Positions 2,022 to 62,400 of a stretch of 64,000 bases of DNA are shown here, one piece after another. The DNA lies in the IMG/VR virus record IMGVR_UViG_3300029712_000001; one strand, given 5' to 3'. The DNA comes from a virus. The position numbers were made by a program, and so were the translations under genes. Positions within the stretch are counted from its first letter, which is position 1. The number at the start of each line of letters is the position of its first letter. Under the pieces are notes generated by a model. The model had not been told where the DNA came from and made no database searches. It saw only the letters and a list, made by a program, of their open reading frames with translations.

Positions 2022-3027
2022 TTTCAGAAGATACGAAAACGTACCCCGGTTTCAACTTGACCGCAGGCCCGGAAGGAGCCGGCTGAAGCTAACCTGCCCG
2101 GCTTGCGGAAAAAGCCGGTGCCTCACTCCTTATATTGATGTGGCAACAGGTCAGGTTGTTGGCAACGAGTTCGGAAGATGCGATCATGAACGGACTTGCG
2201 GTTACGATAAACGACCTACTGGTAAGGATGTAGGTGACAAAGATCTTTGGATTTCGGGAAACAAGTGTATAAGAGCTTATCGTCCTCCTGTAAATCCTGA
2301 CGTTGTAAATTACATACCTTTTAGCGAGTTTGAGAGGACTGTGGTTCCAGACGACAGAAACACCGTATTTAGATTTTTATCGTCTCTATGGGGAAAAGAA
2401 AGGGTATCTGATGTATTCAGGAGGTATCATGTCGGAACAATGGACTTATGGGGATGGAAAGGGTGTTGTATATTCTGGCAGATAGACAAAGATTTTGTAT
2501 GTAGAACCGGCAAGATCATGGACTTTTATATAAAGACCGACAGCCAGGGGAATGAGATTGATGTAAAAAGAGTGAAGGAAAAAGACGGTGACAATGAGCG
2601 ACCTCATGTCATGTTTTATCACTCGTTGCATGCAAGAGACTTCTTGTTTAGACAATGCCTGTTCGGAGAGCATCTTTTAAGCCAGTATCCGGATAAGGTA
2701 GTTAATTTGGTGGAGTCAGAGAAGACGGCTATTATATGCGCCGTGAATAAACCGGATGAGTTATTTGTAGCTACCGGTGGGTTGCAGAACTTAAGACCGG
2801 AAGTGATAGATGTTTTAAAAGATAGAAAGACTGTAGCTTTTCCGGACAAAGGACAAGCATTTGACACATGGAGTAAAAAGATAGATGGGATGATGATGAA
2901 GTCAAGGATAAAAGTATCGGACTATCTTCAGAGTGTTGAGAATGTAGGAGACGGAGATGATGTGGCAGATTTGATAATTAATAACAAAGTAAAAGAGAAA
3001 TATTATGAGCCTGGACGTTTATATTAA
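2014..3027 (+). CDS. Zn-finger / TOPRIM-like protein (putative primase or primase-associated)
   Basis: N-terminal Cys/His cluster (CPACG ... CDHERTC). C-terminal VNLVESEKTAIICAV ... VAFPDKG resembles the TOPRIM Glu and acidic motifs. GAGGAG Shine-Dalgarno upstream. Confidence 0.45.
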   Translation: MLDFRRYENVPRFQLDRRPGRSRLKLTCPACGKSRCLTPYIDVATGQVVGNEFGRCDHERTCGYDKRPTGKDVGDKDLWISGNKCIRAYRPPVNPDVVNYIPFSEFERTVVPDDRNTVFRFLSSLWGKERVSDVFRRYHVGTMDLWGWKGCCIFWQIDKDFVCRTGKIMDFYIKTDSQGNEIDVKRVKEKDGDNERPHVMFYHSLHARDFLFRQCLFGEHLLSQYPDKVVNLVESEKTAIICAVNKPDELFVATGGLQNLRPEVIDVLKDRKTVAFPDKGQAFDTWSKKIDGMMMKSRIKVSDYLQSVENVGDGDDVADLIINNKVKEKYYEPGRLY

Positions 3028-3358
3028 GAGCAAGAAGAAAGAAGAGGATCGTGAATGGGTTGCAAACATCACCCACAACATGAACAAGATGGCACAAAAA
3101 ATATTCGTATCAGAAAACAAAGAAACACTATACGATTATGTTTGGAGACCGGAAGAATTGGGCAGGGAAATAGATACTAAGGAGATGGTGAAGATACTCA
3201 CAAAAGGTATATATATTATGATCTCCAAGAGAAAAAGTCTTTTGAGATACGAACCAGAAAACGGATGGGGGTCTTATGATTCATTTCTTAAGTTTCTTAT
3301 CAAATACAAAGAGGCGTGTGAAGATCATCCGGGTTATATAATTGAAGCAAGTAGATAA
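3005..3358 (+). CDS. hypothetical protein
   Basis: 117-aa ORF in the operon; no motif recognised. Confidence 0.55.
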   Translation: MSLDVYIKSKKKEEDREWVANITHNMNKMAQKIFVSENKETLYDYVWRPEELGREIDTKEMVKILTKGIYIMISKRKSLLRYEPENGWGSYDSFLKFLIKYKEACEDHPGYIIEASR

Positions 3359-7894: not shown

Positions 7895-9595
7895 ATGACA
7901 ACAATCATGTACGTGTCAGCTATATTAGCTGTAGTGATTATTTTGACAATCATCGGAGTCTTATCAAGGTATCGTAGATGTAAGCCTAATCAGGTCTTGG
8001 TCGTTTATGGTAAGACAGGTGGGGAAAAGAAGTCGGCGAAATTATATCATGGTGGAGCGGCATTTGTCTTACCTATTATTCAAAGCTATGATGTTTTGTC
8101 AATGGAGCCTATGCAAATAGATTGCAAGCTTACCGGTGCTTTGTCATCTCAGAATATTAGAGTAGATGTACCTACAACCATTACAGTAGCTATCAGTACA
8201 AATCTCGAAATCATGCAAAATGCGGCAGAAAGACTTTTGGGGATGGATACCGAATCTACTGAAAATCTTATTACGGACATCGTTTACGGTCAGATGCGTT
8301 TGATTATTGCTGAAATGACAATCGAAAAACTTAATTCTGACAGGGATGAGTTTTTGGATAAGGCAAGAAAGAACATTGATAACGAGCTTAACAAGTTAGG
8401 TCTTTACCTCCTGAACATCAACATCAGTGACATCAGAGACGAAGCCGGTTATATTATGAACCTTGGTAAGGAGGCTGAAAGTAGGGCTCTGAACGAGGCA
8501 CAGGCTAATATCGAAGAACAGGAGAAGCTGGGTGCTATTAAGATTGCTGTACAGCAGAAGGAGAAAGAAACGGCTGTGGCTAATACCAAAAAAGAGCAAG
8601 AGATTCAAATTGCTTGTACTGAAAAAGAAAAGGAAACGATAGTAGCTGAAACGAAGAAAGAAAAAGAAATAGCTTTAGCTTTAACCGATAAAGAGAAACA
8701 GATCGGTGTAGCTCAAGCAGATAGAGACAGGGCTGCGGTTATCGCAAAAACTTTAACCGACAAGGAATCGGCGATCGTAAGATCTAAGGCAGAACTTGAA
8801 GTAAATAAAGCCGAGGCTGAAAGAATGGAAGAAGTCGGAAAGAATAAGGCTGAAGCTGACAAGGAAGCAGCTATAGCAATACAAGACTCTGAAGCTCAGA
8901 TTAAGAAGGCTGAGGCTGAGAAAAATGCGTCTATAGGATACAACAATGCCCAGAAGGAGGTTGCTGTATCAGTATCAGAACTACAGATCATCAAAGCTCA
9001 ATCAGAGAAGAAGGCCGGAGAAGAAAAAGTTAAATCGGAAGCGGCTGTAAAAACAGCAAAAGAGCTTGCCGACAAAGAAGTGGAAGAAGCTAAGGCTAAG
9101 AAAGTTCAGGCTGCGCTTAAGGCTGAAAAGATTGTGCCGGCTGAAACCCAGAAGGAAGAGGCTATCTTGCAAGCTGATGCCGAGGCCGAGAAGATCAAAC
9201 GCCGGGCTGAGGCTGAGGCAGCAGCACATTTGGCAAAAGCTGAGGCGGAGGCAAAAGCTATTCAGATGAAGCTGGAGGCAGAAGCCGAAGGTAAGAAAAA
9301 GTCGTTAATGGCAGAAGCCGACGGATTTAAGGCCATGGTGGAAGCAGCAGAATCCAATCCTCAGATCGCCATCCAATACAAGATGGTTAATCAGTGGAAA
9401 GAAATTGCCGGAGAACAGGTTAAGGCGTTCGAGCACATCAATCTCGGAAATATCACGGTATTTGACGGCGGTCAGAACAGTACCGGTAATTTCCTTAACA
9501 ATGTTGTCAAGACCGTCGCTCCGGCATTGGGAGTCATTGATCAGCTTCCGATTGCAGATACTTTAAAGAAGCTAAAAGGAGATGACAAAAAATAA
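7895..9595 (+). CDS. flotillin-like SPFH/Band-7 protein
   Basis: 566 aa. N-terminal TM anchor followed by RYRRCKPNQVLVVYGK...GGAAFVLPIIQ, typical of the flotillin/YqiK start. Long Glu/Ala/Lys coiled coil and a conserved C-terminal flotillin-like tail. Confidence 0.85.
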   Translation: MTTIMYVSAILAVVIILTIIGVLSRYRRCKPNQVLVVYGKTGGEKKSAKLYHGGAAFVLPIIQSYDVLSMEPMQIDCKLTGALSSQNIRVDVPTTITVAISTNLEIMQNAAERLLGMDTESTENLITDIVYGQMRLIIAEMTIEKLNSDRDEFLDKARKNIDNELNKLGLYLLNINISDIRDEAGYIMNLGKEAESRALNEAQANIEEQEKLGAIKIAVQQKEKETAVANTKKEQEIQIACTEKEKETIVAETKKEKEIALALTDKEKQIGVAQADRDRAAVIAKTLTDKESAIVRSKAELEVNKAEAERMEEVGKNKAEADKEAAIAIQDSEAQIKKAEAEKNASIGYNNAQKEVAVSVSELQIIKAQSEKKAGEEKVKSEAAVKTAKELADKEVEEAKAKKVQAALKAEKIVPAETQKEEAILQADAEAEKIKRRAEAEAAAHLAKAEAEAKAIQMKLEAEAEGKKKSLMAEADGFKAMVEAAESNPQIAIQYKMVNQWKEIAGEQVKAFEHINLGNITVFDGGQNSTGNFLNNVVKTVAPALGVIDQLPIADTLKKLKGDDKK

Positions 9596-9624: not shown

Positions 9625-9811
9625 TAATTGAAGAAATAAAAGCAGCATTCATAGATTTCCTGCCTGCTGGAACAGTGATTTTAAGTGCTTTACTAATTAC
9701 GATATTTTTAACATGGATTTTGGACAAGATTTAGAACCAGAAGAACTGACCAAGCATTATGATCAGTGTTATAACCCCAAATAGTATTAAACCAATATAA
9801 TTCTATTATAA

Positions 9812-10092
9812 AAGTTTAATACATCTCTTTAAGAGATCGGGTTATTAGCCTAAGCCTTGAAACAAAGGCTACGTTATTTAAGAATAGATAGTTACCTACG
9901 GATGTTTACCCAAGTCTGTAGCTCTAAGGTAAGTGATTAAACAGTTCTGGTATTCAGGAACAGTGTTGCTTATTCAAAACCTTAAATAACATTGGCGATG
10001 GGTACTTACAGGAGAAATCCTGACTTATCCCTAACGGGATTTACATCTACCAAGGAGACCGAAAGGTCTCCGAGGGGATGTATTAAAACATA
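9812..10092 (+). ncRNA. candidate structured RNA, class unknown
   Basis: Lies in a 533-bp ORF-free gap. Nested long-range perfect helices 9815-9825/10077-10087 (11 bp) and 9873-9882/9981-9990 (10 bp). Local hairpins at 9853-9870, 9892-9932, 9944-9961 and 10015-10042. Hairpin 10054-10071 is GGAGACC-GAAA-GGTCTCC with a GNRA loop. G-U pairs favour the + strand. Confidence 0.45.
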
Positions 10093-10128: not shown

Positions 10129-10476
10129 ATGGAATTGATTTTGAAACAGAAGAAGAGGAGGATGAAGAGTATGACTGATGAGGAATTTGTATTGGATAAT
10201 AAGAAAAAGGTTGTTGCAAGAAAAAGAATATCTTATTTAAACAAAGGTGATAAAGTATGGATCGTGTCTTCCGACGGGTATCTGCTACACACGGACGTAG
10301 TTAGAGCCGAACGCGGATGGTCTTATGTGGAGATAGACGGGATTCTGTATTGGAAGCGAGGATTAGATGGCAAGCATCGTAATCGTAATAACTACATGCA
10401 GTTTGCCATGACACCAGAAGACGGTAAGAAGTATGTCGTATATTACCCGGAAGGATTTAAAGACAATGACTTATGA
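10129..10476 (+). CDS. hypothetical protein
   Basis: 115-aa ORF. Confidence 0.55.
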   Translation: MELILKQKKRRMKSMTDEEFVLDNKKKVVARKRISYLNKGDKVWIVSSDGYLLHTDVVRAERGWSYVEIDGILYWKRGLDGKHRNRNNYMQFAMTPEDGKKYVVYYPEGFKDNDL

Positions 10477-11492
10477 TGGTCCCGGAAACACATTTGCTAT
10501 ATAAGGAGTTTAATGGTGTGAAACGTCTTGCCATATCTTATTCCCAGATAGATACGTTTCTTACTTGTCCAATGAAATGGTATAAGACTTACGTAGAGGG
10601 TAAAAGGTCTACAGAAAAACAAGAAGCTACATCTTATGGTACGGTTATCCATAAAACACTGGAATACTTCTTTAAGAACGGAAGACAGCCTTCTGGTAAA
10701 GACCTTGGAGAAGCGATAAGTTACTATTCCTATCAAGAAGACATACCTTGGCAATCACCGGAAAATATGATGATAGCCATGAAACAATCTGGGGAGCTTC
10801 TTGCTTGGATTGTGGATCTGTTCAAAAAAGACGGCAATAGGTTTATGATAGCTGATAGTGATCTTAATCCCTGTGAGAAACTTATCAGACACGGCGCTAT
10901 AATTGGAGTCGAAGAAGATTTTGTGCTGCCGTATCGTCTTCCTAAGCCTGTTGATATAAATGGTGACGTTCATACACATGTGTACATAGTAGGATCGGTA
11001 GATCTTCATCTGGCTATAAAGAGCAAGAACGTAGTTCACCATTATGTCATAGATTGGAAATCAGGTAATAAGGTTTTTGATTCTAAGAAGTTGGAAACGA
11101 ATTTACAGCATCCTATATATTCGTTTTACATCTATAGAAAATATGGTGGGGTTCTACCAGATATGAACATCTATTTCTTTACCAGAACCAGGCAGTACCA
11201 AAAGGTTAAGATAGATGAAGAGCGTAAAACAAAATCTATAGAAATGCTAAATGACACTTTGTCTAAAATGTATGATTTTGAAGATAATAGTGTAAAAACA
11301 TTTCAAGCGTACATCCAGGGAGCAGAAGAAGCCAGGTATAGCAAGCGGCGCGCCACCCTAAGCCAGCCTGTTTCGCAAAACAAGCTACCCTGCCCGTCGG
11401 CGCTGTGTTATTATTGTGACTTTGGATTACATAACAAAAACGAATGCCCTTTCTCTTCAGATTGGGATCCGTCTAAAAAGATAAAACGATGA
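10473..11492 (+). CDS. Cas4/RecB-like PD-(D/E)XK nuclease with 4-Cys cluster
   Basis: N-terminal FLTCPMKWY plus C-terminal CPSALCYYC (a C...CxxxxCxxC arrangement, as in Fe-S Cas4/AddB nucleases). GSVDLH ... VIDWKSGNK (D / DxK) and QHPIYSFY (QxxxY). Confidence 0.7.
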   Translation: MMVPETHLLYKEFNGVKRLAISYSQIDTFLTCPMKWYKTYVEGKRSTEKQEATSYGTVIHKTLEYFFKNGRQPSGKDLGEAISYYSYQEDIPWQSPENMMIAMKQSGELLAWIVDLFKKDGNRFMIADSDLNPCEKLIRHGAIIGVEEDFVLPYRLPKPVDINGDVHTHVYIVGSVDLHLAIKSKNVVHHYVIDWKSGNKVFDSKKLETNLQHPIYSFYIYRKYGGVLPDMNIYFFTRTRQYQKVKIDEERKTKSIEMLNDTLSKMYDFEDNSVKTFQAYIQGAEEARYSKRRATLSQPVSQNKLPCPSALCYYCDFGLHNKNECPFSSDWDPSKKIKR

Positions 11493-57109: not shown

Positions 57110-58744
57110 TTATATTTTTATTTTCTTAATTTCCTCAATCATATTCTTATATCCGCAGAACTTGCTGTTAATAACATCGAAAATAGATTCTGACCAGCCA
57201 GCTATGTTCAAGATATTAGATCCTCTGTAAAACATCTCACTTCCATATCCTTGAATAGAAATAGAAACGATCTTGCAATTTGGATTTACTTTCTTGAACT
57301 CTTTCAAAAGTTCGGCGAATTTACCATATTCATAATTGGAACTTTTCTCCCATACAATAGATTCACCATCTCCTATCTGCATATCTGAAATAACGTACAA
57401 GTTATCTACTTTGATCTTGTCTTTAACGCACTTATCCAAGAATGCAAAAAGACCGTTTTCGGTAGCACCACCGCATTCTCCTCCGGCAGTAAAAGATTTT
57501 TTGTTATTCCATAAAACACCTTTACTTCTATCATATTCGTAATTGATAAGTTTGTCACCAAACATACCGATAAATACGTCAGGAAGCACAGAAGCAATCA
57601 TACAGCCAAATAAGTTACCAATGACAGCCGTACTTGTTTTGCTAAAGGCAGACACCTCAGAAGATCCTCCCATATCTCCACGTACAGAGCCAGAGTGGTC
57701 AATCAGGATAGCCGACCGCCCCTCCAATACCGGCAGGTTCTTGCAGGAGATGGTTATGGCTTTCTCCAACGCATCTAAAATCTTATCTTTATTACGCGCT
57801 GTTAATTTAGCACGTTTTTTATCCGACTCAAATACAATATCATTATCGGAACCATCAGTGCCCATATTTTCAACCTCTTTGAAAGCTGAAGCAAAACGGA
57901 AAGGAAGCATCTTCGAATTAAGTACCTTCTCTTCTATTGTAAGCTGCCTACAAACTTCATCTATTTGATCAGGTGCGTATTTGATTATGTTTATAAGGTT
58001 ACGAACCATATTAAAAATAGGCATACCTTTTACATTAGAAACCACGTCTCGAATAGCGTCACCTAAAGCTTCTTTCTTTTCCTTATTGTCTTTCTTATCC
58101 TGTCCGGCTTTAGACATTTCTTTTTCAAGAATCTTACTTTCGTATAATCCAGACAAAGGCCGACCTTCTATAAGGTACTGGAAAGCCGTTTTATTAGCCT
58201 GATTGCCTTTAGGGTGAAATAAGTTTACGAGGTCAACCATAGTAATGACCCTACTGTCCATCTTGTACTTGTCAATCCGATACGGATCAAGACCCTCCAA
58301 AGCCGTCTTAAATCCTTTCTTAATAGCGCTGGATATACCTCTTAACTTCTTTGGATTTTTGTCGTTAAGAGCCGCATAGCAGCCAAGGATTTCGCTCATA
58401 TCATCAGGACGCATAACGATCTTATTATAGAACCTTGAAGCCCATTCCTTACCCGATGCTTTGCTGGCAAGGACAGAAGCCATAAGATGCGTTACTGACC
58501 TAAGCTTTCCTTCTTTCCTTACATACAATGCTGTTTGTGCTGCAAAATACGGATCCACCTGATCCATAAGGTTCTTAATTCTTCCTACTTTATCTTTTTC
58601 TTTCTCATAATAAGAATCAGATAACATGGTAGTCATTACCGTAGATACCAACTCTTCTTCTGCGTTAGGCTTATACGCCTTCTCTCCCATGTGATTCACG
58701 ATCGTAGGTTTAACACCTTCATTCTTTTTGTTAAACTTTCCCAT
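57110..58744 (-). CDS. rsr: Ro60-like protein (TROVE domain + vWA/MIDAS domain)
   Basis: 544 aa. The N-terminal two thirds follow the TROVE pattern (NHMGEKAY...FYE...DPYFAAQTALYVRKEGKLRSVTHLMASVLA...RPDDMSEILGCY...IDKYKM...VTMVDLVNLFHPKG). The C-terminus has a DxSGS MIDAS motif (ILIDHSGSVRGD) with a vWA-like alternation. Confidence 0.8.
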   Translation of the reverse strand: MGKFNKKNEGVKPTIVNHMGEKAYKPNAEEELVSTVMTTMLSDSYYEKEKDKVGRIKNLMDQVDPYFAAQTALYVRKEGKLRSVTHLMASVLASKASGKEWASRFYNKIVMRPDDMSEILGCYAALNDKNPKKLRGISSAIKKGFKTALEGLDPYRIDKYKMDSRVITMVDLVNLFHPKGNQANKTAFQYLIEGRPLSGLYESKILEKEMSKAGQDKKDNKEKKEALGDAIRDVVSNVKGMPIFNMVRNLINIIKYAPDQIDEVCRQLTIEEKVLNSKMLPFRFASAFKEVENMGTDGSDNDIVFESDKKRAKLTARNKDKILDALEKAITISCKNLPVLEGRSAILIDHSGSVRGDMGGSSEVSAFSKTSTAVIGNLFGCMIASVLPDVFIGMFGDKLINYEYDRSKGVLWNNKKSFTAGGECGGATENGLFAFLDKCVKDKIKVDNLYVISDMQIGDGESIVWEKSSNYEYGKFAELLKEFKKVNPNCKIVSISIQGYGSEMFYRGSNILNIAGWSESIFDVINSKFCGYKNMIEEIKKIKI

Positions 58745-58778
58745 TTGTTGTTGTTTTCTTTAAAGTGTTATACAAAAA

Positions 58779-58804
58779 AAGCAGTGATATTACTACCACT
58801 GCTT
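58779..58804 (-). terminator. rho-independent terminator between the tRNA-like array and the Ro60 gene
   Basis: AAGCAGTG / CACTGCTT stem followed on the - strand by a T-run (A-run 58773-78 on +) and preceded by T10. It ends 34 nt before the Ro60 ATG. Confidence 0.6.
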
Positions 58805-58865
58805 GAAAAAAAAAATATATCAAAATGAATACTCAATGAGGGAAAAGCTGAAGTTAGTGTAAACA

Positions 58866-58938
58866 ATGAAATAATGGATTTGAACCATCGACCTATACTT
58901 TAAAAGAGTATCGCTCTATCCATCTGAGCTAAATTCGA
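58866..58938 (-). tRNA. tRNA-shaped RNA with UUU (Lys) anticodon and a defective acceptor stem
   Basis: Minus strand: TCGAATT TA GCTC-AGATGGATA-GAGC G ATACT-CTTTTAA-AGTAT AGGTC GATGG-TTCAAAT-CCATT ATTTCAT. U8, G18G19, U33, G53, T54-C56 and C61 are present. Only 4 of 7 acceptor pairs are Watson-Crick, and no CCA is encoded. Confidence 0.45.
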
Positions 58939-59009
58939 AGTAACTAACCCCATCACCACTCATTAGTTTTTATATATTTCAAACAGAGGAAAAACGGAGC
59001 CGGACAAAA

Positions 59010-59081
59010 TGAAAATATTGGATTCGAACCAATGAAAAGTATTATTACAGAATACCGCGTTATCCACTACGCTAATTTTCG
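59010..59081 (-). tRNA. tRNA-shaped RNA with GUA (Tyr) anticodon, class-I type (short variable loop)
   Basis: Minus strand: CGAAAAT TA GCGT-AGTGGATA-ACGC G GTATT-CTGTAAT-AATAC TTTTC ATTGG-TTCGAAT-CCAAT ATTTTCA. All canonical tertiary positions are present. It has a C1xA72 mismatch, U73 and a 5-nt variable loop, whereas bacterial tRNA-Tyr normally has a long variable arm. Confidence 0.55.
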
Positions 59082-59148
59082 AAGTAACCGAACTCCTCAC
59101 CATCTATATATTTTATTAAAACAGGGAGAACCTGGAATGTGTTTTAAT

Positions 59149-59245
59149 ATGAAAGGAGGTTTTGATCTACCAACTGATCTAATTTTTCTTACATGAAAAA
59201 TATAGGACTCAAACCTATGACACAAACCGAAGTATCACCTTCCAT
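59149..59245 (-). ncRNA. circularly permuted tRNA-like RNA (YrlA-type Y RNA candidate)
   Basis: Minus strand 5'->3': ATGGAAGG(59245-59238) TGATACTTC GGTTT(59228-59224) GTGTC ATAGG-TTTGAGT-CCTAT(59218-59202) ATTTTTC-ATGTAA-GAAAAAT(59201-59182) TA GATC-AGTTGGTA-GATC(59179-59164) A AAACC(59162-59158) T CCTTTCAT(59156-59149). All stem and loop lengths match tRNA geometry, but the order is T arm, then closed acceptor hairpin, then D arm. Confidence 0.55.
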
Positions 59246-59284
59246 CACCACTGTCTTACATTATAATCTCTCTTGATTACGATG

Positions 59285-59292
59285 CAAATATA
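59285..59292 (-). promoter_or_regulatory. Bacteroidota-type promoter (-7 TATATTTG, with TTTG 19 nt upstream)
   Basis: Minus strand aaTTTGtaaatcatattttagtgtcTATATTTGcatc, directly upstream of the tRNA-like array and downstream of the terminator at 59402-59435. Confidence 0.5.
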
Positions 59293-59401
59293 GACACTAA
59301 AATATGATTTACAAATTAAAATGATTTAAAATGTATTAATTTGGATAAATAAATGTAGTGAATAATATAAAGTGGTTATACACAGCCTTGCACTTAAAAG
59401 T

Positions 59402-59435
59402 ATTACCCTCTACTTGCTAATAGGCAGAGGGTAAT
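59402..59435 (-). terminator. rho-independent terminator after the >1518-aa gene
   Basis: ATTACCCTCT / AGAGGGTAAT 10-bp stem, followed on the - strand by ACTTTTAAG. Confidence 0.65.
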
Positions 59436-59441
59436 ACGATA

Positions 59442-62400
59442 TTATCTATTCTTAATCTTATCTTCGGAAATCAACCACTGGAATATAATTTTCCGGCTGC
59501 TAATTACTTTCTTTATCCTCATCAGCATCCAACTTCCTCTTAACCTATCCAGCCATGACCGTCTGAAATTAAGAGCATCAGGATTAACTGACTTATTTAT
59601 ATCGTTATCGTCCTTGATCCAAATAGGGGTATCTGACCGGTCATCGTCAACCCTGTTGAAGAAGTCATTTAACTTATGTCTTCTATATACCTCAGTATCC
59701 AGGACCTCAGTATAGTCGCCTACGATTTTCGGATACGATATACGTTGCGCTAAATTATTCTTTTCTTCTGGAACAAGATGAATTTCACCTGAGTTGTTTG
59801 TGTCGTTGTAGATAGTTATCGTATCTAAACCTACTTTCCTGTCAAGAGTGTAATTCACATCATCGACGTATTTCCTTGCATCAAGCTCGTATTCTACAGA
59901 AGCCAGCGTAGAGCCATTATATTTCTCTTTTATCGGCACTTCTAATATAAATGGATATGTTGCTCCGTAGAATGTCTGGAAGCTCTTATTCGTCAGCAAA
60001 TGACTCCATAAGCCGCCTTCTTCGTCTGATGTCGGGAAGTTTATTCCTGTCTGAAAATATTGTTGCTGTTCTATATAATAGTCAGGACAGAACGAATAAT
60101 AAGAAATCCATTCTTGCTTCAGACACGAATATCCGATAGTGAACGACACGTCTTTAAAATACTGTTCGTCTTTTAAAGATATTTCCTTATCGTTTGATAA
60201 CACCTCTGTTTCATTGTACAAGAACCTTCCACCATCATATTTGTAATATGCCGGGTTCTTAACAGGTATATAATCTTTTTTCGTGATAAGTACTCTCTTA
60301 TACCTGTTATCCCATCCAAGAGACAGACCAAGACCGATAAATTTATTGTCTGTATCTTCTTCTGTCATCTCTGTGCCGGTTAAGATATTAGTTATTCCGT
60401 ATCTAAGAATCTTAAACGGAAGATGACGCTTGAGCCAATGTCTGATACCTACACTAAGTTCCTTGAGATTACGTCCGTTCGGATCGGTCATAAATACCTG
60501 TGCTCTTTTAGTATCTACCCAGAAGTGACCAAATTCTGAACTAATTATTTCAGTACTCTGGGTTCCAGAATAACCGAGGTCGGTCGTGTTGTACTCCAGA
60601 GGTCTGGACGCGAACAGACCGCCGGTGCCCATCTCAGCCTGCCCAGGGGAGGTGCGCTCCTTGATTACATCTATGGCGTTATGGAGTGAAACCTGATCCT
60701 CGAACCTGACAAGAATCTGATTAGACTCGATACGCTTCATGTGAATAAGCTTCCCGTTGCTGGTTGGAAACTCATGATAGTCCATAGGCTTGTACGTTAG
60801 CCACGGATCTGTTTGACTGTTTTCAGATACGTCAGCCCTACTCCATATAACACCATTAGGTCGCTGGTAAGCACAATCATAAAAACGACGTTCGTATGTT
60901 GCCGGCAATACATTAGGAGTCAATGTCATCCTCGATGAATAGATAGGACTTATCTTGTAATCATTGTCCCTATGGATAGACACGTTCTTTTCTTGTGTCC
61001 ACCAAACAAAATCTCCTACTTTTGGATAGAATAATTCATGAGGCTGAGGACCCTCTAATCTGAAATTACAATTTATTTCAGATTCTACAAGGAACTGAGG
61101 AATGCCATAGAACCATGTATAAAATCTGCCATCTACATACTTACCGGAGGTGTCACCGTTCAATTCATACAAGCTCTTCCTATTTGGGTAAAAAGCATAT
61201 CTTCCTTTATTAGACGATGTCCAACTATTGAAACGTTCGTTATCCGTGGTTTCAAGCGCATCTTCCCCTGTATCATAATTAACAAAATATCTTGGATATC
61301 CTACATTTCTATAATCCATGTAAGGGAAAGGTATCATATCTCCAATACCAAAAGCACTATTATAAAAAACAGGAAATTTTCTCTTTAATGAAAATCTGGT
61401 TATCACCGTATCACCACCGAACATCAGTTTCTTTTCATTAGTGAAAAATCCACATCCACCTATGGAAATCCATTTTATATCTTCTATTTGACCATATTGA
61501 TCCGGCCTATATCTCATAAGCCTCATATACGGAGAACAGATGTATGAAACTGATTTGGATTGCTCGAATGTTCTTCCTGCTACAACATCTCTTCCAGCAA
61601 TAACCGAATCATCTATACGGCTACTGTCGTAGTTGTAGACATAGTTCGGATATTCCAATAAATATTTCGATTTACCATCTCCTTTTTCACCTGGATCACC
61701 AAATGATAAAAATAACGAAGATTCACGATCTATATTATTAACAAATAAGAATCGTCCCTCATTATCGTTTTTACCGGTTCCCCATTTAGATGACATGCTG
61801 GCATCCATCATAGGATATACACCAGACTTCATGTACTTAACAGAAGATAAACCACGAGCAAAATTTCGTTCATACTTATCCTGGTCTGTTATACCTATCA
61901 TTGAATTATATAATCCTACAGAAGTATAATACCATGCATGATTACGTCTCGGTCCATTGTTTATAAACGTATTAAGCCAATCATAACGGTACTTACCGTA
62001 CAATATCGGGCCCTTAGCAAGAGTTTGACTGATGGTTGACACCATTGAAGAAAACAGCATGGCTACACTTAAATTCGTTAGGAATCCTCCTCCGGTAAGA
62101 CCGGCCGACCCTCCTATGTATCCAGACTGAGCCCTTATCTGAAGCTCTTCTGCTATCATAGCGGCTATTGTGGCACTTGATTCAACTGCGGCAAGTGACG
62201 CAGCCATCGTATAAGCAGCAGGACCTAAGATAGTCCATTTTGGATGATCTTCTACAGGCACAAAACTGCCTACAGACATTCCTCTTTGGAACCCGTCTAT
62301 ACATACTTCATTTGGAAGTTCGGGCTTGTTAAAATAAATATCAGGCGAACAAAATGAATACCACACGTTTCCTCCTTTGTCGAAAGGATGGGATATAAAC

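What the first reader, a model, noticed from the sequence alone, without database searches (positions are those of the whole stretch)
59149..59245. Circularly permuted tRNA mimic: T arm, closed acceptor hairpin, U8-A9, D arm, with ends at the anticodon-stem position
**Order of elements, read on the minus strand**
1. A 5-bp stem with 7-nt loop (ATAGG-TTTGAGT-CCTAT), preceded by a 5-nt variable-like GTGTC.
2. A perfect 7-bp helix closed by a hexaloop (ATTTTTC-ATGTAA-GAAAAAT).
3. The dinucleotide TA.
4. A 4-bp/8-nt D arm with GG (GATC-AGTTGGTA-GATC).
5. One nucleotide.
6. AAACC, which pairs with GGTTT located just before the variable segment.

**Why it matters**
- Every length equals the tRNA canon (7 / 2 / 4-8-4 / 1 / 5 ... 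5 / 5-7-5 / 7), but the order is permuted so that the acceptor stem has no free ends.
- This is the published architecture of the tRNA-like domain of bacterial YrlA Y RNAs.
- Beyond the 5-bp stem, an 8-bp helix (ATGGAAGG/CCTTTCAT, one G-U) is offset by a 9-nt bulge. That gives a bulged terminal helix, as expected for a Ro60-binding stem.
- The T-loop has U instead of C at position 56.
Basis: seen in the sequence. Interest (0 to 1): 0.85.

Follow-up and report, generated by a model that had tools for sequence, protein, structure and literature searches.

The report
Phage Y RNAs beside Ro60 gene
The flagged sequence is a real tRNA-shaped "Y RNA" of the YrlA type in a crAss-like gut phage, lying just upstream of the phage's Ro60 gene, and the two annotated tRNA genes between them sit inside the same Y-RNA stem, which gives a testable clue to what these tRNA mimics are for.

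Summary
On the minus strand, 59228-59158 reads variable loop, T arm, closed 7-bp acceptor hairpin, U8-A9, D arm, and a 5-bp entry stem, all with canonical tRNA lengths.

The interpretation as a YrlA-type Y RNA is supported:
- A TROVE/Ro60 (Rsr) gene lies 374 nt downstream on the same strand.
- Rfam YrlA matches below its threshold (27.8 bits; gathering score 69).
- Sixteen related units from different phage contigs show strong covariation: 26 of 31 pairs have compensatory changes, and 88.9% of cells are paired against 61.9% when shuffled.

Two corrections:
- The RNA is longer than flagged, about 59257-59118.
The conserved stem is an outer helix with a bulged U, GG:CC, a GGUGA motif (a variant of GNCGAA), and a second helix with a distal partner.

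New finding: the annotated tRNA-Tyr and tRNA-Lys lie inside the same scaffold. A covariance model built from YrlA units hits exactly these three RNAs in the 64 kb window. Other phages put permuted, acceptor-less or complete tRNAs in this scaffold, and close relatives differ in the anticodon.

Verdict: RNA1 is a new, divergent member of a known kind. The scaffolded tRNAs are a new variant. Function is inferred, not shown.

The parts
59260..59292 (-). Promoter-like region upstream of RNA1: a Bacteroidota-type TAnnTTTG (TATATTTG, 59292-59285), overlapping a sigma-70-like TTTGCA-17-TATAAT (59288-59260).
   Evidence: Consensus scan and direct reading. The same GTAnnTTTGCA box precedes Y RNA units in L083, L084 and L271. 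No comparable box precedes RNA2 or RNA3. Inferred, not shown.
59118..59257 (-). RNA1, a YrlA-type Y RNA (full extent). It contains: the outer helix 59257-59251 with 59124-59118; bulged U 59250; GG 59249-59248 with CC 59126-59125; the GGUGAUGG motif 59249-59242; helix 2, 59244-59236 with 59141-59133 (one G-A mismatch in this window); AUACUUCG 59235-59228; and the permuted tRNA-like domain 59228-59158.
   Evidence: RNAalifold consensus and pair counts on alignment A1. Model R1 scores 103 bits here, but this sequence is in the seed. Rfam YrlA scores 27.8 bits over 59245-59146.
59158..59228 (-). In order: entry stem GGUUU/AAACC, variable loop GUGUC, T arm, closed 7-bp acceptor hairpin, U8-A9, D arm, A26.
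   Evidence: Direct reading. Among 36 distinct domain variants, each position of the T stem, acceptor hairpin and D stem shows 2-6 pair types except the two invariant G-C pairs of the T stem. Against L083, the entry stem changes on both sides at one pair (G-C to C-G) and at two further pairs through a change on one side (G-C to G-U, U-A to A-U).
58981..59109 (-). RNA2: the same Y scaffold enclosing a complete cloverleaf, annotated as tRNA-Tyr(GUA) at 59081-59009. The scaffold consists of: outer helix UAGA(U)GG 59106-59100 with CC-UCUG 58989-58984; GGUGAGG; helix 2, 59096-59088 with 59003-58996; and UUACUUCG.
   Evidence: R1 hit at 25.9 bits, E 3.5e-5, covering model positions 1-138 with the tRNA as a local insert; this sequence is not in the seed. 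tRNA called at 55 bits. The minimum-energy fold reproduces the scaffold plus the cloverleaf.
58834..58965 (-). RNA3: the same Y scaffold enclosing a complete cloverleaf, annotated as tRNA-Lys(UUU) at 58938-58865. The scaffold consists of: outer helix AAUGAG(U)GG 58964-58956 with CC-CUCAUU 58842-58835; GGUGAUGG; helix 2, 58951-58943 with 58858-58850; and UUACUUCG.
   Evidence: R1 hit at 41.3 bits, E 1.3e-9, covering model positions 1-138; this sequence is not in the seed. tRNA called at 53.3 bits. Fold.
58771..58804 (-). Intrinsic-terminator-like hairpin and U run after RNA3. It is the only such site in 58600-59500.
   Evidence: L083 has an equivalent hairpin in the same place.
57110..58744 (-). 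rsr: a Ro60 / TROVE-domain protein of 544 aa.
   Evidence: Pfam TROVE, E 4.8e-14. PHROG 850 'RNA-binding protein', E 2e-29. Matches Thermus phage phiLo Ro60 structures 9L5Y/9KOP at E 1e-15. GenBank OR575929 annotates the orthologue as 'Ro sixty-related protein'.

Best explanation
**What it is.** The window comes from a crAss-like phage of the human gut. On the minus strand it carries a small operon of three Y RNAs, followed by the phage's Ro60 orthologue (rsr).

**The three RNAs.** RNA1, the flagged element, is a YrlA-class Y RNA. All three RNAs share one stem, formed by their 5' and 3' ends. It consists of:
- an outer helix with a bulged U,
- a GG:CC step,
- a GGUGA(N)G 5'-strand motif,
- a second helix,
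- an internal loop holding UUACUUCG.

By analogy with characterised Y RNAs, this stem is where the Ro60 ring binds.

**The effector end.** The far end of each RNA is tRNA-shaped.
- In RNA1 the T arm, a closed acceptor hairpin and the D arm are circularly permuted. There is no CCA end and no anticodon loop.
- In RNA2 and RNA3 a complete cloverleaf sits in native order, with its acceptor stem growing out of the Y stem.

**Inferred steps.**
- One transcript runs from the promoter upstream of RNA1 to the terminator after RNA3 and is cut into three RNAs.
- Rsr binds each stem.
- The tRNA-shaped modules recruit or occupy host proteins that recognise tRNA.

**Shown versus inferred.** Shown here are the structures, their covariation, the shared scaffold and the linkage to rsr. 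Expression, Rsr binding and function are inferred.
For: **Context**
- The window is 96.7% identical to phage csAssE-Sib.
- The TROVE/Ro60 ORF at 58744-57110 is on the same strand.

**Structure of RNA1**
- Rfam YrlA gives a sub-threshold, end-to-end match.
- RNAalifold on 16 units from different contigs predicts the outer helix with bulge and GG:CC, helix 2, the T arm, the closed acceptor hairpin and the D stem. 26 of 31 pairs carry compensatory changes.
- The controls are passed: 0 of 500 shuffles reach the observed values, and slid partners score 0.14-0.23 against 0.747.
- The outer helix was tested on units chosen without reference to it. 11 of 16 have 9 of 9 contiguous pairs, against 1.07 expected, and GG:CC covaries with AG:CU.

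**Shared scaffold**
- GGTGA-N10-TNCTTCG occurs three times in 64 kb, once in each RNA.
- Model R1 finds exactly these three sites in the window and 173 units in 97 phage loci.

**Motif and linkage to rsr**
- Relatives carry the literal published motif GGCGAAG at the same position, for example L120. The motif definition is in PMC4201824.
- 40 of 85 loci retrieved by an RNA pattern alone encode a TROVE homologue, as far as five tblastn queries at E<1e-5 could detect.

**Transcription signals**
- There is one promoter-like site and one terminator.
Against: - The Rfam YrlA score is far below the gathering threshold (27.8 against 69), and the full-window gathering scan reports nothing here.
- The literal GNCGAA(N)G motif is not present in this window. 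It reads GGUGAUGG.
- Folding energies are no better than those of shuffled sequence.
- Helix 2 of RNA1 has a G-A mismatch in this window, and T-loop position 56 is U, so this particular copy could be slightly impaired.
- Some Rsr loci (L087, L298, L299, L373) have no detectable unit within the stretch fetched.
- There are no expression or binding data.
Confidence: 0.85

Rival explanations
1. RNA2 and RNA3 are ordinary phage tRNA genes. The shared flanks are leader and trailer processing stems of a polycistronic tRNA transcript. RNase P and 3' trimming release decoding tRNAs. Ro60, if involved at all, only chaperones the precursors.
For: - Both score as tRNAs (55 and 53 bits).
- Compensatory changes maintain the D, anticodon and T stems among close relatives.
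- L242 has a scaffolded tRNA(UCA) with an encoded ACCA end.
- M. smegmatis YrlA is cut by RNase P and receives CCA while still bound to Rsr (PMC4201824). Processing and Ro binding are therefore compatible.
Against: - RNA2 has a 5-nt variable loop. As far as I know, bacterial tRNA-Tyr has a long variable arm.
- The C1-A72 mismatch is fixed by the scaffold motif.
- 54 or more relatives have G33, or a 3-bp anticodon stem.
- Seven relatives have lost the tRNA but kept the scaffold.
- The RNA2 counterpart in L083 lacks a T arm.
- L271, L214 and L226 carry acceptor-less versions that cannot be charged.
- L271 also has unscaffolded tRNA-Pro and tRNA-Lys genes with the same anticodons.
- The RNA3 acceptor stem has only 4 of 7 standard pairs.
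Confidence: 0.3
2. RNA1 is a non-functional remnant of recombination between tandem tRNA genes (the T arm of one copy joined to the D arm of the next). It only resembles YrlA.
For: - The T arm and acceptor strand of RNA1 (CCUAUAUUUUUCAU) resemble those of RNA2 (CCAAUAUUUUCAU).
- One relative carries an RNA1/RNA2 recombinant joined at that point.
- Chen et al. warn that dimeric tRNAs can mimic YrlA in searches.
Against: - No tRNA halves flank the element.
- The same permuted order, with a closed acceptor hairpin, is kept across many phage lineages with wholly different stem sequences.
- The nucleotides that form tRNA tertiary contacts are kept: U8, A14, G18, G19, U54, A58 and G15:C48.
- It is linked to rsr.
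Confidence: 0.04
3. The shared stem does not bind Ro60. It is the target of another factor, for example an RNase III- or RNase E-type processing site, or an element recognised by a different phage protein. Its linkage to rsr would then be coincidental synteny.
For: - Binding was not tested.
- Some Rsr loci lack units.
- About half of the loci fetched by RNA pattern show no TROVE hit in the stretch held.
- L271 units sit in a tRNA array with no rsr in the 11.5 kb held.
Against: - The 5'-strand motif, its position and the following YUAY/UUAC match the features that define Rsr-bound YrlA and YrlB in Salmonella and M. smegmatis.
- The Rfam YrlA model aligns end to end.
- In 40 loci, units lie next to TROVE genes that share only 23-45% identity with one another.
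Confidence: 0.08

Closest known systems
YrlA Y RNAs of Salmonella Typhimurium, Mycobacterium smegmatis and mycobacteriophages (Chen et al. 2014, PMC4201824; crystal structure in bioRxiv 10.1101/312249; Rfam RF02553)
   Same: - Encoded next to rsr on the same strand.
- A terminal stem formed by the two RNA ends, with a conserved 5'-strand motif followed by YUAY.
- An effector module ordered T arm, closed acceptor-like hairpin, D arm, with the tRNA tertiary nucleotides kept.
- No CCA end and no anticodon loop.
- A 7-bp acceptor hairpin, as in M. smegmatis.
   Different: - The motif is GGUGAUGG rather than GNCGAA(N)G.
- It scores 27.8 bits against a gathering score of 69.
- None of 15 phage loci with the same scaffold reaches the threshold either.
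- The host group is Bacteroidota-infecting crAss-like phages. The papers searched do not link these phages with Ro60.
- It sits in an array with two siblings that carry complete tRNAs.
Deinococcus radiodurans Yrn1
   Same: A Y RNA whose tRNA-like part is in native order: D-like element, anticodon-like arm, T arm. The Ro-binding stem takes the place of the acceptor stem (PMC4201824). This is the topology of RNA2 and RNA3, and of the acceptor-less units in L271 and L214.
   Different: Yrn1 is degenerate, with no full D arm, a 6-nt loop and no variable arm. RNA2 and RNA3 are complete cloverleaves that tRNA finders call as tRNA-Tyr and tRNA-Lys.
Thermus phage phiLo Ro60 with Yrl1 and Yrl2 (PMC12135203)
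   Same: A phage-encoded Ro60 with Y-like RNAs just upstream. The proteins are homologous (E 1e-15). That paper shows RNA binding and a complex with host PNPase.
   Different: That paper identified the phiLo Yrls by a CGAA motif and predicted stems. The passages read here do not describe a tRNA-like module or embedded tRNAs.
Circularly permuted tRNA genes of Cyanidioschyzon merolae and some archaea (from my own knowledge)
   Same: The 3' half of a tRNA lies upstream of the 5' half, and the acceptor ends are joined by a loop.
   Different: Those genes are processed into normal decoding tRNAs with an anticodon loop. RNA1 has no anticodon loop; its entry stem continues into a Y RNA stem.
Phage-encoded tRNAs that counter tRNA-cleaving host defences, for example phage T5 tRNAs (from my own knowledge)
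   Same: Phage tRNAs with the anticodons seen here (Lys UUU, Tyr GUA) have been linked to escape from anticodon nucleases.
   Different: Those are free-standing decoding tRNAs. They are not embedded in a Y RNA stem and not linked to Ro60. The connection is a lead only.

Membership tests
YrlA Y RNA (Chen et al. 2014; Rfam RF02553) | Encoded within 4 kb of a Ro60/TROVE gene, on the same strand. | tested here: met
   RNA1 ends at 59118 and rsr starts at 58744, both on the minus strand. The criterion is quoted.
YrlA Y RNA (Chen et al. 2014; Rfam RF02553) | GNCGAA(N0-1)G motif near the 5' end, followed by YUAY. | tested here: inconclusive
   The window reads GGUGAUGG, which differs at two positions, followed by UUAC/AUAC at a fixed 10-nt spacing. 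At the same position, relatives read GGCGAUGG (L037), GGUGAAG (L083) and the literal GGCGAAG (L120).
YrlA Y RNA (Chen et al. 2014; Rfam RF02553) | Long stem formed by pairing of the 5' and 3' ends (the Ro60-binding module). | tested here: met
   The outer helix with its bulge and helix 2 are each supported by 7 of 8 pairs with compensatory changes. An independent test gives 11 of 16 against 1.07 expected.
YrlA Y RNA (Chen et al. 2014; Rfam RF02553) | Effector module ordered T arm, closed acceptor-like stem-loop, D arm, with conserved tRNA nucleotides, no anticodon loop and no free CCA end. | tested here: met
   C56 is U in this window only.
YrlA Y RNA (Chen et al. 2014; Rfam RF02553) | Score at or above the Rfam gathering threshold (69 bits). 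| tested here: not met
   27.8 bits, and absent from the gathering scan. L083 scores 31.1 and L084 scores 38. None of 15 other phage loci passes. This is a curated score cut-off, not a biological feature. I therefore file RNA1 as a divergent phage subfamily with the YrlA architecture, outside RF02553 as currently thresholded.
YrlA Y RNA (Chen et al. 2014; Rfam RF02553) | Bound by Rsr in vivo, and carrying tRNA modifications (pseudouridine 55, dihydrouridine). | not testable with these tools
   Needs immunoprecipitation or EMSA, and modification mapping.
Decoding tRNA (considered for RNA2 and RNA3) | Cloverleaf that scores above the tRNA model threshold. | tested here: met
   Rfam tRNA scores 55.0 and 53.3 bits (gathering score 29). 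ARAGORN calls Tyr(GUA) and Lys(UUU).
Decoding tRNA (considered for RNA2 and RNA3) | Intact 7-bp acceptor stem. | tested here: not met
   RNA2 has a C1-A72 mismatch, and RNA3 has 3 non-standard pairs out of 7.
Decoding tRNA (considered for RNA2 and RNA3) | U33 and a stable anticodon stem kept across relatives. | tested here: not met
   54 or more relatives of RNA2 have G33 or a broken anticodon stem. Seven have lost the tRNA but kept the scaffold.
Decoding tRNA (considered for RNA2 and RNA3) | Class II variable arm, for a bacterial tRNA-Tyr. | tested here: not met
   RNA2 has a 5-nt variable loop. That bacterial tRNA-Tyr has a long variable arm is taken from my own knowledge.
Decoding tRNA (considered for RNA2 and RNA3) | Processing to a CCA-tailed, aminoacylated molecule. 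| not testable with these tools
   No CCA is encoded in the window. Needs tRNA sequencing and charging assays.

The most novel reading that the evidence does not exclude
Phage Ro60 particles carry Y RNAs whose effector end is a real or near-real tRNA with an exposed anticodon arm.

**Evidence**
- The same scaffold holds, in different phages, complete tRNAs, acceptor-less tRNAs and permuted tRNAs that still have a full anticodon arm.
- Anticodons seen include Tyr GUA, Lys UUU, His GUG, Gln UUG, Pro UGG and Cys GCA.
- In three cases, near-identical bodies in close relatives differ in the anticodon: GUA/GCA/GUU, UUU/UUC/GUU and GAU/UUU/UCU.

**Reading**
The anticodon arm is the working part. The RNPs would act against anticodon-specific host factors, either as Ro60-tethered decoys or competitive inhibitors of anticodon nucleases, or as protected spare tRNAs. 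This would extend the suggestion of Hughes et al. (PMC7790460) that YrlA may inhibit an anticodon nuclease. If true, it would assign a function to the tRNA-like domain of bacterial Y RNAs.
Probability: 0.25. Interest if true: 0.85.

Novelty: new variant of a known kind. Interest (0 to 1): 0.6.

Why it matters
**The open question.** The role of the tRNA-like domain of bacterial Y RNAs has been unresolved since 2014.

**What RNA1 adds.** Taken alone, RNA1 extends the YrlA class to crAss-like phages of Bacteroidota. It also shows that the Rfam model misses a large phage subfamily: 173 units in 97 loci here.

**What the surroundings add.**
- The same Ro60-type stem encloses complete tRNAs that public records annotate as plain tRNA genes.
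- Related phages place acceptor-less or permuted tRNAs with intact anticodon arms in the same stem.
- Close relatives differ in the anticodon.

**What becomes testable.** These points lead to direct experiments:
- Are the RNAs bound by Rsr?
- Are they processed and charged?
- Do they protect against tRNA-cleaving defences?

**Practical caution.** tRNA counts and codon-usage arguments for such phages may include RNAs that are not decoders.

Tried and rejected
**Tried, uninformative**
- The Rfam gathering scan of the window finds only two tRNAs and a HEARO RNA. YrlA appears only at an E-value threshold.
- Folding-energy z-scores are not significant for any of the three RNAs.
- A scan of viral contigs with the 5' motif alone (14 specified bases) returned mostly chance matches in coding DNA.
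- A viral-contig scan with the 73%-identical Rsr (P0024) returned only the window's own clade.
- The genome-contig scan gave one MAG contig, with no Y unit.

**My own tests that I discard**
- My first two controls for the outer helix were spoiled by near-identical relatives and by false regex hits. I replaced them.
- My first test for excess anticodon polymorphism fixed the non-anticodon positions in the regex, so it was biased (p 5e-6). The unbiased count gives 6 of 9 against 66 of 226, p 0.026. That is suggestive only.

**Interpretations rejected**
- Tandem tRNA false positive: no flanking tRNA halves are present.
- Permuted decoding tRNA gene: there is no anticodon loop.
- tmRNA: neither ARAGORN nor Rfam finds a match.
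Full report
**1. What is in the sequence**

- GGUUU (59228-59224)
- a 5-nt variable loop, GUGUC
- T arm AUAGG-UUUGAGU-CCUAU (59218-59202)
- a perfect 7-bp hairpin AUUUUUC-AUGUAA-GAAAAAU (59201-59182)
- UA
- D arm GAUC-AGUUGGUA-GAUC (59179-59164)
- one A
- AAACC (59162-59158)

The nucleotides that build the tRNA core are in place: U8, A14, G18, G19, U54, A58 and G15:C48. Position 56 is U instead of C. That change is private to this window; none of the other 35 distinct variants of the domain has it. ARAGORN calls no tRNA here.

**2. Context**

The window is 96.7% identical to phage csAssE-Sib, a 151-kb phage from the human gut. It carries crAss-type structural genes: a muzzle or virion protein upstream and a tail lysozyme downstream.

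On the same strand, 374 nt downstream of the element, lies a 544-aa ORF (58744-57110) with these matches:
- Pfam TROVE domain (E 4.8e-14)
- PHROG 850
- the solved Ro60 of Thermus phage phiLo (E 1e-15)

Between the element and this rsr gene lie two genes that tRNA finders and GenBank call tRNA-Tyr(GUA) and tRNA-Lys(UUU).

Rfam's YrlA model aligns end to end with 59245-59146, but at only 27.8 bits (gathering score 69; E 0.0025 in a 2-kb search).

**3. One scaffold shared by three RNAs**

All three RNAs begin with GGUGA, then exactly 10 nt, then UACUUCG. The pattern GGTGA-N10-TNCTTCG occurs three times in 64 kb, and only here.

In relatives, the position of GGUGA(U/G)G reads GGCGAUGG, GGUGAAG or GGCGAAG. 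The last is the literal GNCGAA(N)G motif that Chen et al. found near the 5' end of Rsr-bound YrlA and YrlB. They related it to the GGUCCGA contacted by Xenopus Ro60 (PMC4201824). The UUAC that follows corresponds to their YUAY.

Upstream of the motif lie 6-7 nt, a bulged U and GG. These pair with CC plus 6-7 nt at the far 3' end, which is preceded by a U-rich stretch.

| RNA | 5' strand | 3' strand |
|---|---|---|
| RNA1 | AAGACAG(U)GG | CC-CUGUUUU |
| RNA2 | UAGA(U)GG | CC-UCUG |
| RNA3 | AAUGAG(U)GG | CC-CUCAUU |

A second helix lies inside the 10-nt spacer.

**4. Comparative test**

I collected related units through Rsr homologues and through two DNA-pattern scans of viral contigs.

A structure-blind MAFFT alignment of 16 YrlA-type units from different contigs (A1) was given to RNAalifold. 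It predicted five elements on its own, and 26 of 31 pairs carry compensatory changes:
- the outer helix with a one-nucleotide bulge and GG:CC
- helix 2
- the T arm
- the closed acceptor hairpin
- the D stem

Pair counts for this structure:

| Measure | Observed | Shuffled | Partners slid |
|---|---|---|---|
| Cells paired | 88.9% | 61.9% (0 of 500 reach observed) | 40-53% |
| Covariation score | 0.747 | 0.240 | 0.14-0.23 |

Further tests:
- I chose units by their 5' motif and YrlA cargo only, without reference to the outer helix. Of 16 non-redundant units, 11 have a 9-of-9 contiguous outer pairing, against 1.07 expected from cross-unit controls. GG:CC also switches to AG:CU.
- The entry stem GGUUU/AAACC is not in the consensus, because that region aligns poorly. 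In L083 it becomes CGAUU/AAUUG, which keeps all five pairs: one pair changes on both sides and two change on one side.

**5.

ATGGAAGG/CCTTTCAT can form in this window. However, about half of the close relatives have deleted CATAT from its 3' strand.

The conserved partner of the 5' strand is the distal CAC(C/A)UUCCA (59141-59133). It lies 6 nt before the CC of the outer helix, as in RNA2. RNAalifold and the full-length minimum-energy fold both choose this partner.

In this window the distal helix has one G-A mismatch, so the two pairings may compete. RNA1 therefore spans about 59257-59118, not 59245-59149.

**6. RNA2 and RNA3**

A covariance model built from A1 (R1) finds exactly three sites in the whole window:

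| Site | Score | E-value | In the seed? |
|---|---|---|---|
| RNA1 | 103 bits | 1.9e-27 | yes |
| RNA3 | 41.3 bits | 1.3e-9 | no |
| RNA2 | 25.9 bits | 3.5e-5 | no |

The RNA2 and RNA3 hits cover the model from end to end, with the tRNA treated as an insert. The minimum-energy fold of RNA2 gives the scaffold plus a full cloverleaf. The CG of UUACUUCG forms the first acceptor positions, which fixes a C1-A72 mismatch in RNA2.

Several facts argue that these are not ordinary decoders:
- RNA2 has a short variable loop.
- RNA3 has only 4 standard pairs in its acceptor stem.
- In the window's own clade, the RNA2 anticodon arm exists in three deep haplotypes. Two have G33, and one of those also has a 3-bp stem.
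- Seven relatives have lost the tRNA but kept the scaffold.
- The L083 counterpart keeps a GUA anticodon arm but has no T arm.

**7. The scaffold in other phages**

R1 finds 173 units in 97 phage loci, in arrays of up to nine. Of 85 loci fetched by an RNA pattern alone, 40 encode a TROVE protein.

The cargo is modular:
- None or short, like YrlB: L191, L091, L002.
- Permuted tRNA-like, the commonest kind.
- Permuted with a closed anticodon arm: L271 has a GUA loop, and L297 is similar.
- Acceptor-less, in native order: L271 Lys UUU, L214 Cys GCA, L226.
- Complete tRNAs: L083 His, L271 Pro, cr111_1 Gln, and L242 UCA with an encoded ACCA end.

L271 also has unscaffolded tRNA-Pro(UGG) and tRNA-Lys(UUU) genes.

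In three cases, near-identical bodies in close relatives differ in the anticodon:
- window RNA2: GUA, GCA, GUU
- window RNA3: UUU, UUC, GUU
- cr111-clade unit A: GAU, UUU, UCU

An unbiased count gives 6 of 9 anticodon positions polymorphic, against 66 of 226 other positions (p 0.026). This is suggestive, not decisive.

**8. Most likely mechanism**

*Shown here:*
- three structured RNAs with a common, covarying stem
- tRNA-shaped distal modules
- linkage to a Ro60 gene

*Inferred from the family (PMC4201824; bioRxiv 10.1101/312249; PMC12135203):*
- Rsr binds the 5' strand of the stem.
- The distal module engages other proteins.
- A promoter-like site upstream of RNA1 and a single terminator after RNA3 suggest one precursor. 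This resembles M. smegmatis, where YrlA and YrlB are cut from one transcript.

What the tRNA modules engage is unknown. The candidates are:
- host PNPase, as shown for phiLo;
- tRNA-recognising enzymes;
- anticodon nucleases. Hughes et al. suggested that YrlA might competitively inhibit one (PMC7790460). The exposed and variable anticodon arms found here fit that idea but do not prove it.

The main rival for RNA2 and RNA3 is that they are released as working tRNAs. That is compatible with Ro binding, because M. smegmatis YrlA is cut by RNase P and gains CCA while still bound.

**9. Comparison with known families, and novelty**

RNA1 has every architectural feature of YrlA, but it fails the Rfam score threshold and carries a variant motif. 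I file it as a divergent phage member of the YrlA class.

Native-order tRNA-like Y RNAs have a precedent in Deinococcus Yrn1, but that RNA is degenerate. I found no description of complete or acceptor-less tRNAs with real anticodon arms inside a YrlA-type stem, and no paper linking Crassvirales with Ro60. The library searched is incomplete. Chen et al. also discarded hits that overlapped tandem tRNA genes.

**10. Limits**
- There are no expression, binding, processing or charging data.
- Loci were gathered by patterns taken from this family, so the frequencies of cargo types are not population estimates.
- Several contigs are represented by more than one locus, so I counted distinct sequences.
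- E-values from R1 are rough.

Noticed in passing
window 9771-10009 (+): A HEARO RNA (the IscB/HNH-associated omega-type RNA; 112 bits, gathering score 83) with no HNH or IscB ORF beside it. Upstream lies a flotillin/SPFH protein (7895-9595). Downstream lie a 115-aa ORF with no Pfam match and a PD-(D/E)XK nuclease (10473-11492).
   Followed up: partly
window 59211 (-): T-loop position 56 of RNA1 is U here. It is C in all 35 other distinct domain variants, including a contig whose Rsr is 100% identical (L003). This is either a private substitution at a nearly universal tRNA position (the G19-C56 elbow pair) or a sequencing error.
   Followed up: partly
window 59081 and 59010 (-); L002 5612-5540 (-); L242 1630-1705: In scaffolded complete tRNAs from three lineages, the C of the UUACUUCG motif is acceptor position 1 and faces A72. 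This C1-A72 mismatch is otherwise known, to my knowledge, as a hallmark of bacterial initiator tRNA. Whether it matters for RNase P or EF-Tu is unknown.
   Followed up: no
relatives of the window: L132 7296-7460; one RNA1/RNA2 chimera and two RNA1 copies with a 12-nt D-arm duplication: The RNA array is structurally unstable among close relatives. Rearrangements seen: a 17-nt duplication inside the tRNA-Tyr D arm; a deletion fusing the RNA1 T arm to the RNA2 3' half; a TAGATCAGTTGG duplication in RNA1; and a 5-nt CATAT deletion in about half of the RNA1 copies.
   Followed up: partly
L242 1602-1733, next to Rsr at 2083-3207: A scaffolded complete tRNA with anticodon UCA (it would read UGA) and an encoded ACCA end. 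It could be a working suppressor tRNA delivered from a Y RNA stem.
   Followed up: no
L266 101-374 (-): A permuted tmRNA (Rfam 110 bits) at the end of a phage tRNA array that also contains Y-scaffold units.
   Followed up: no
L001 (GenBank OR575929, 72756-73240 in the record): The published genome of the near-identical phage annotates the Ro sixty-related protein, tRNA-Lys and tRNA-Tyr. It annotates no Y RNA and no feature over the RNA1 counterpart (L001 8117-8250).
   Followed up: yes
window about 20000: GC skew and the coding strand flip at about 20 kb: positive skew up to 20 kb, negative after. This marks the boundary between two divergently oriented gene modules of the phage.
   Followed up: no
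window 59280-59263 (-): A small hairpin, GUAAUC-AAGAGA-GAUUAU, lies between the promoter-like box and RNA1. It is conserved almost letter for letter in L083, whose Rsr is only 73% identical. Its role is unknown.
   Followed up: no
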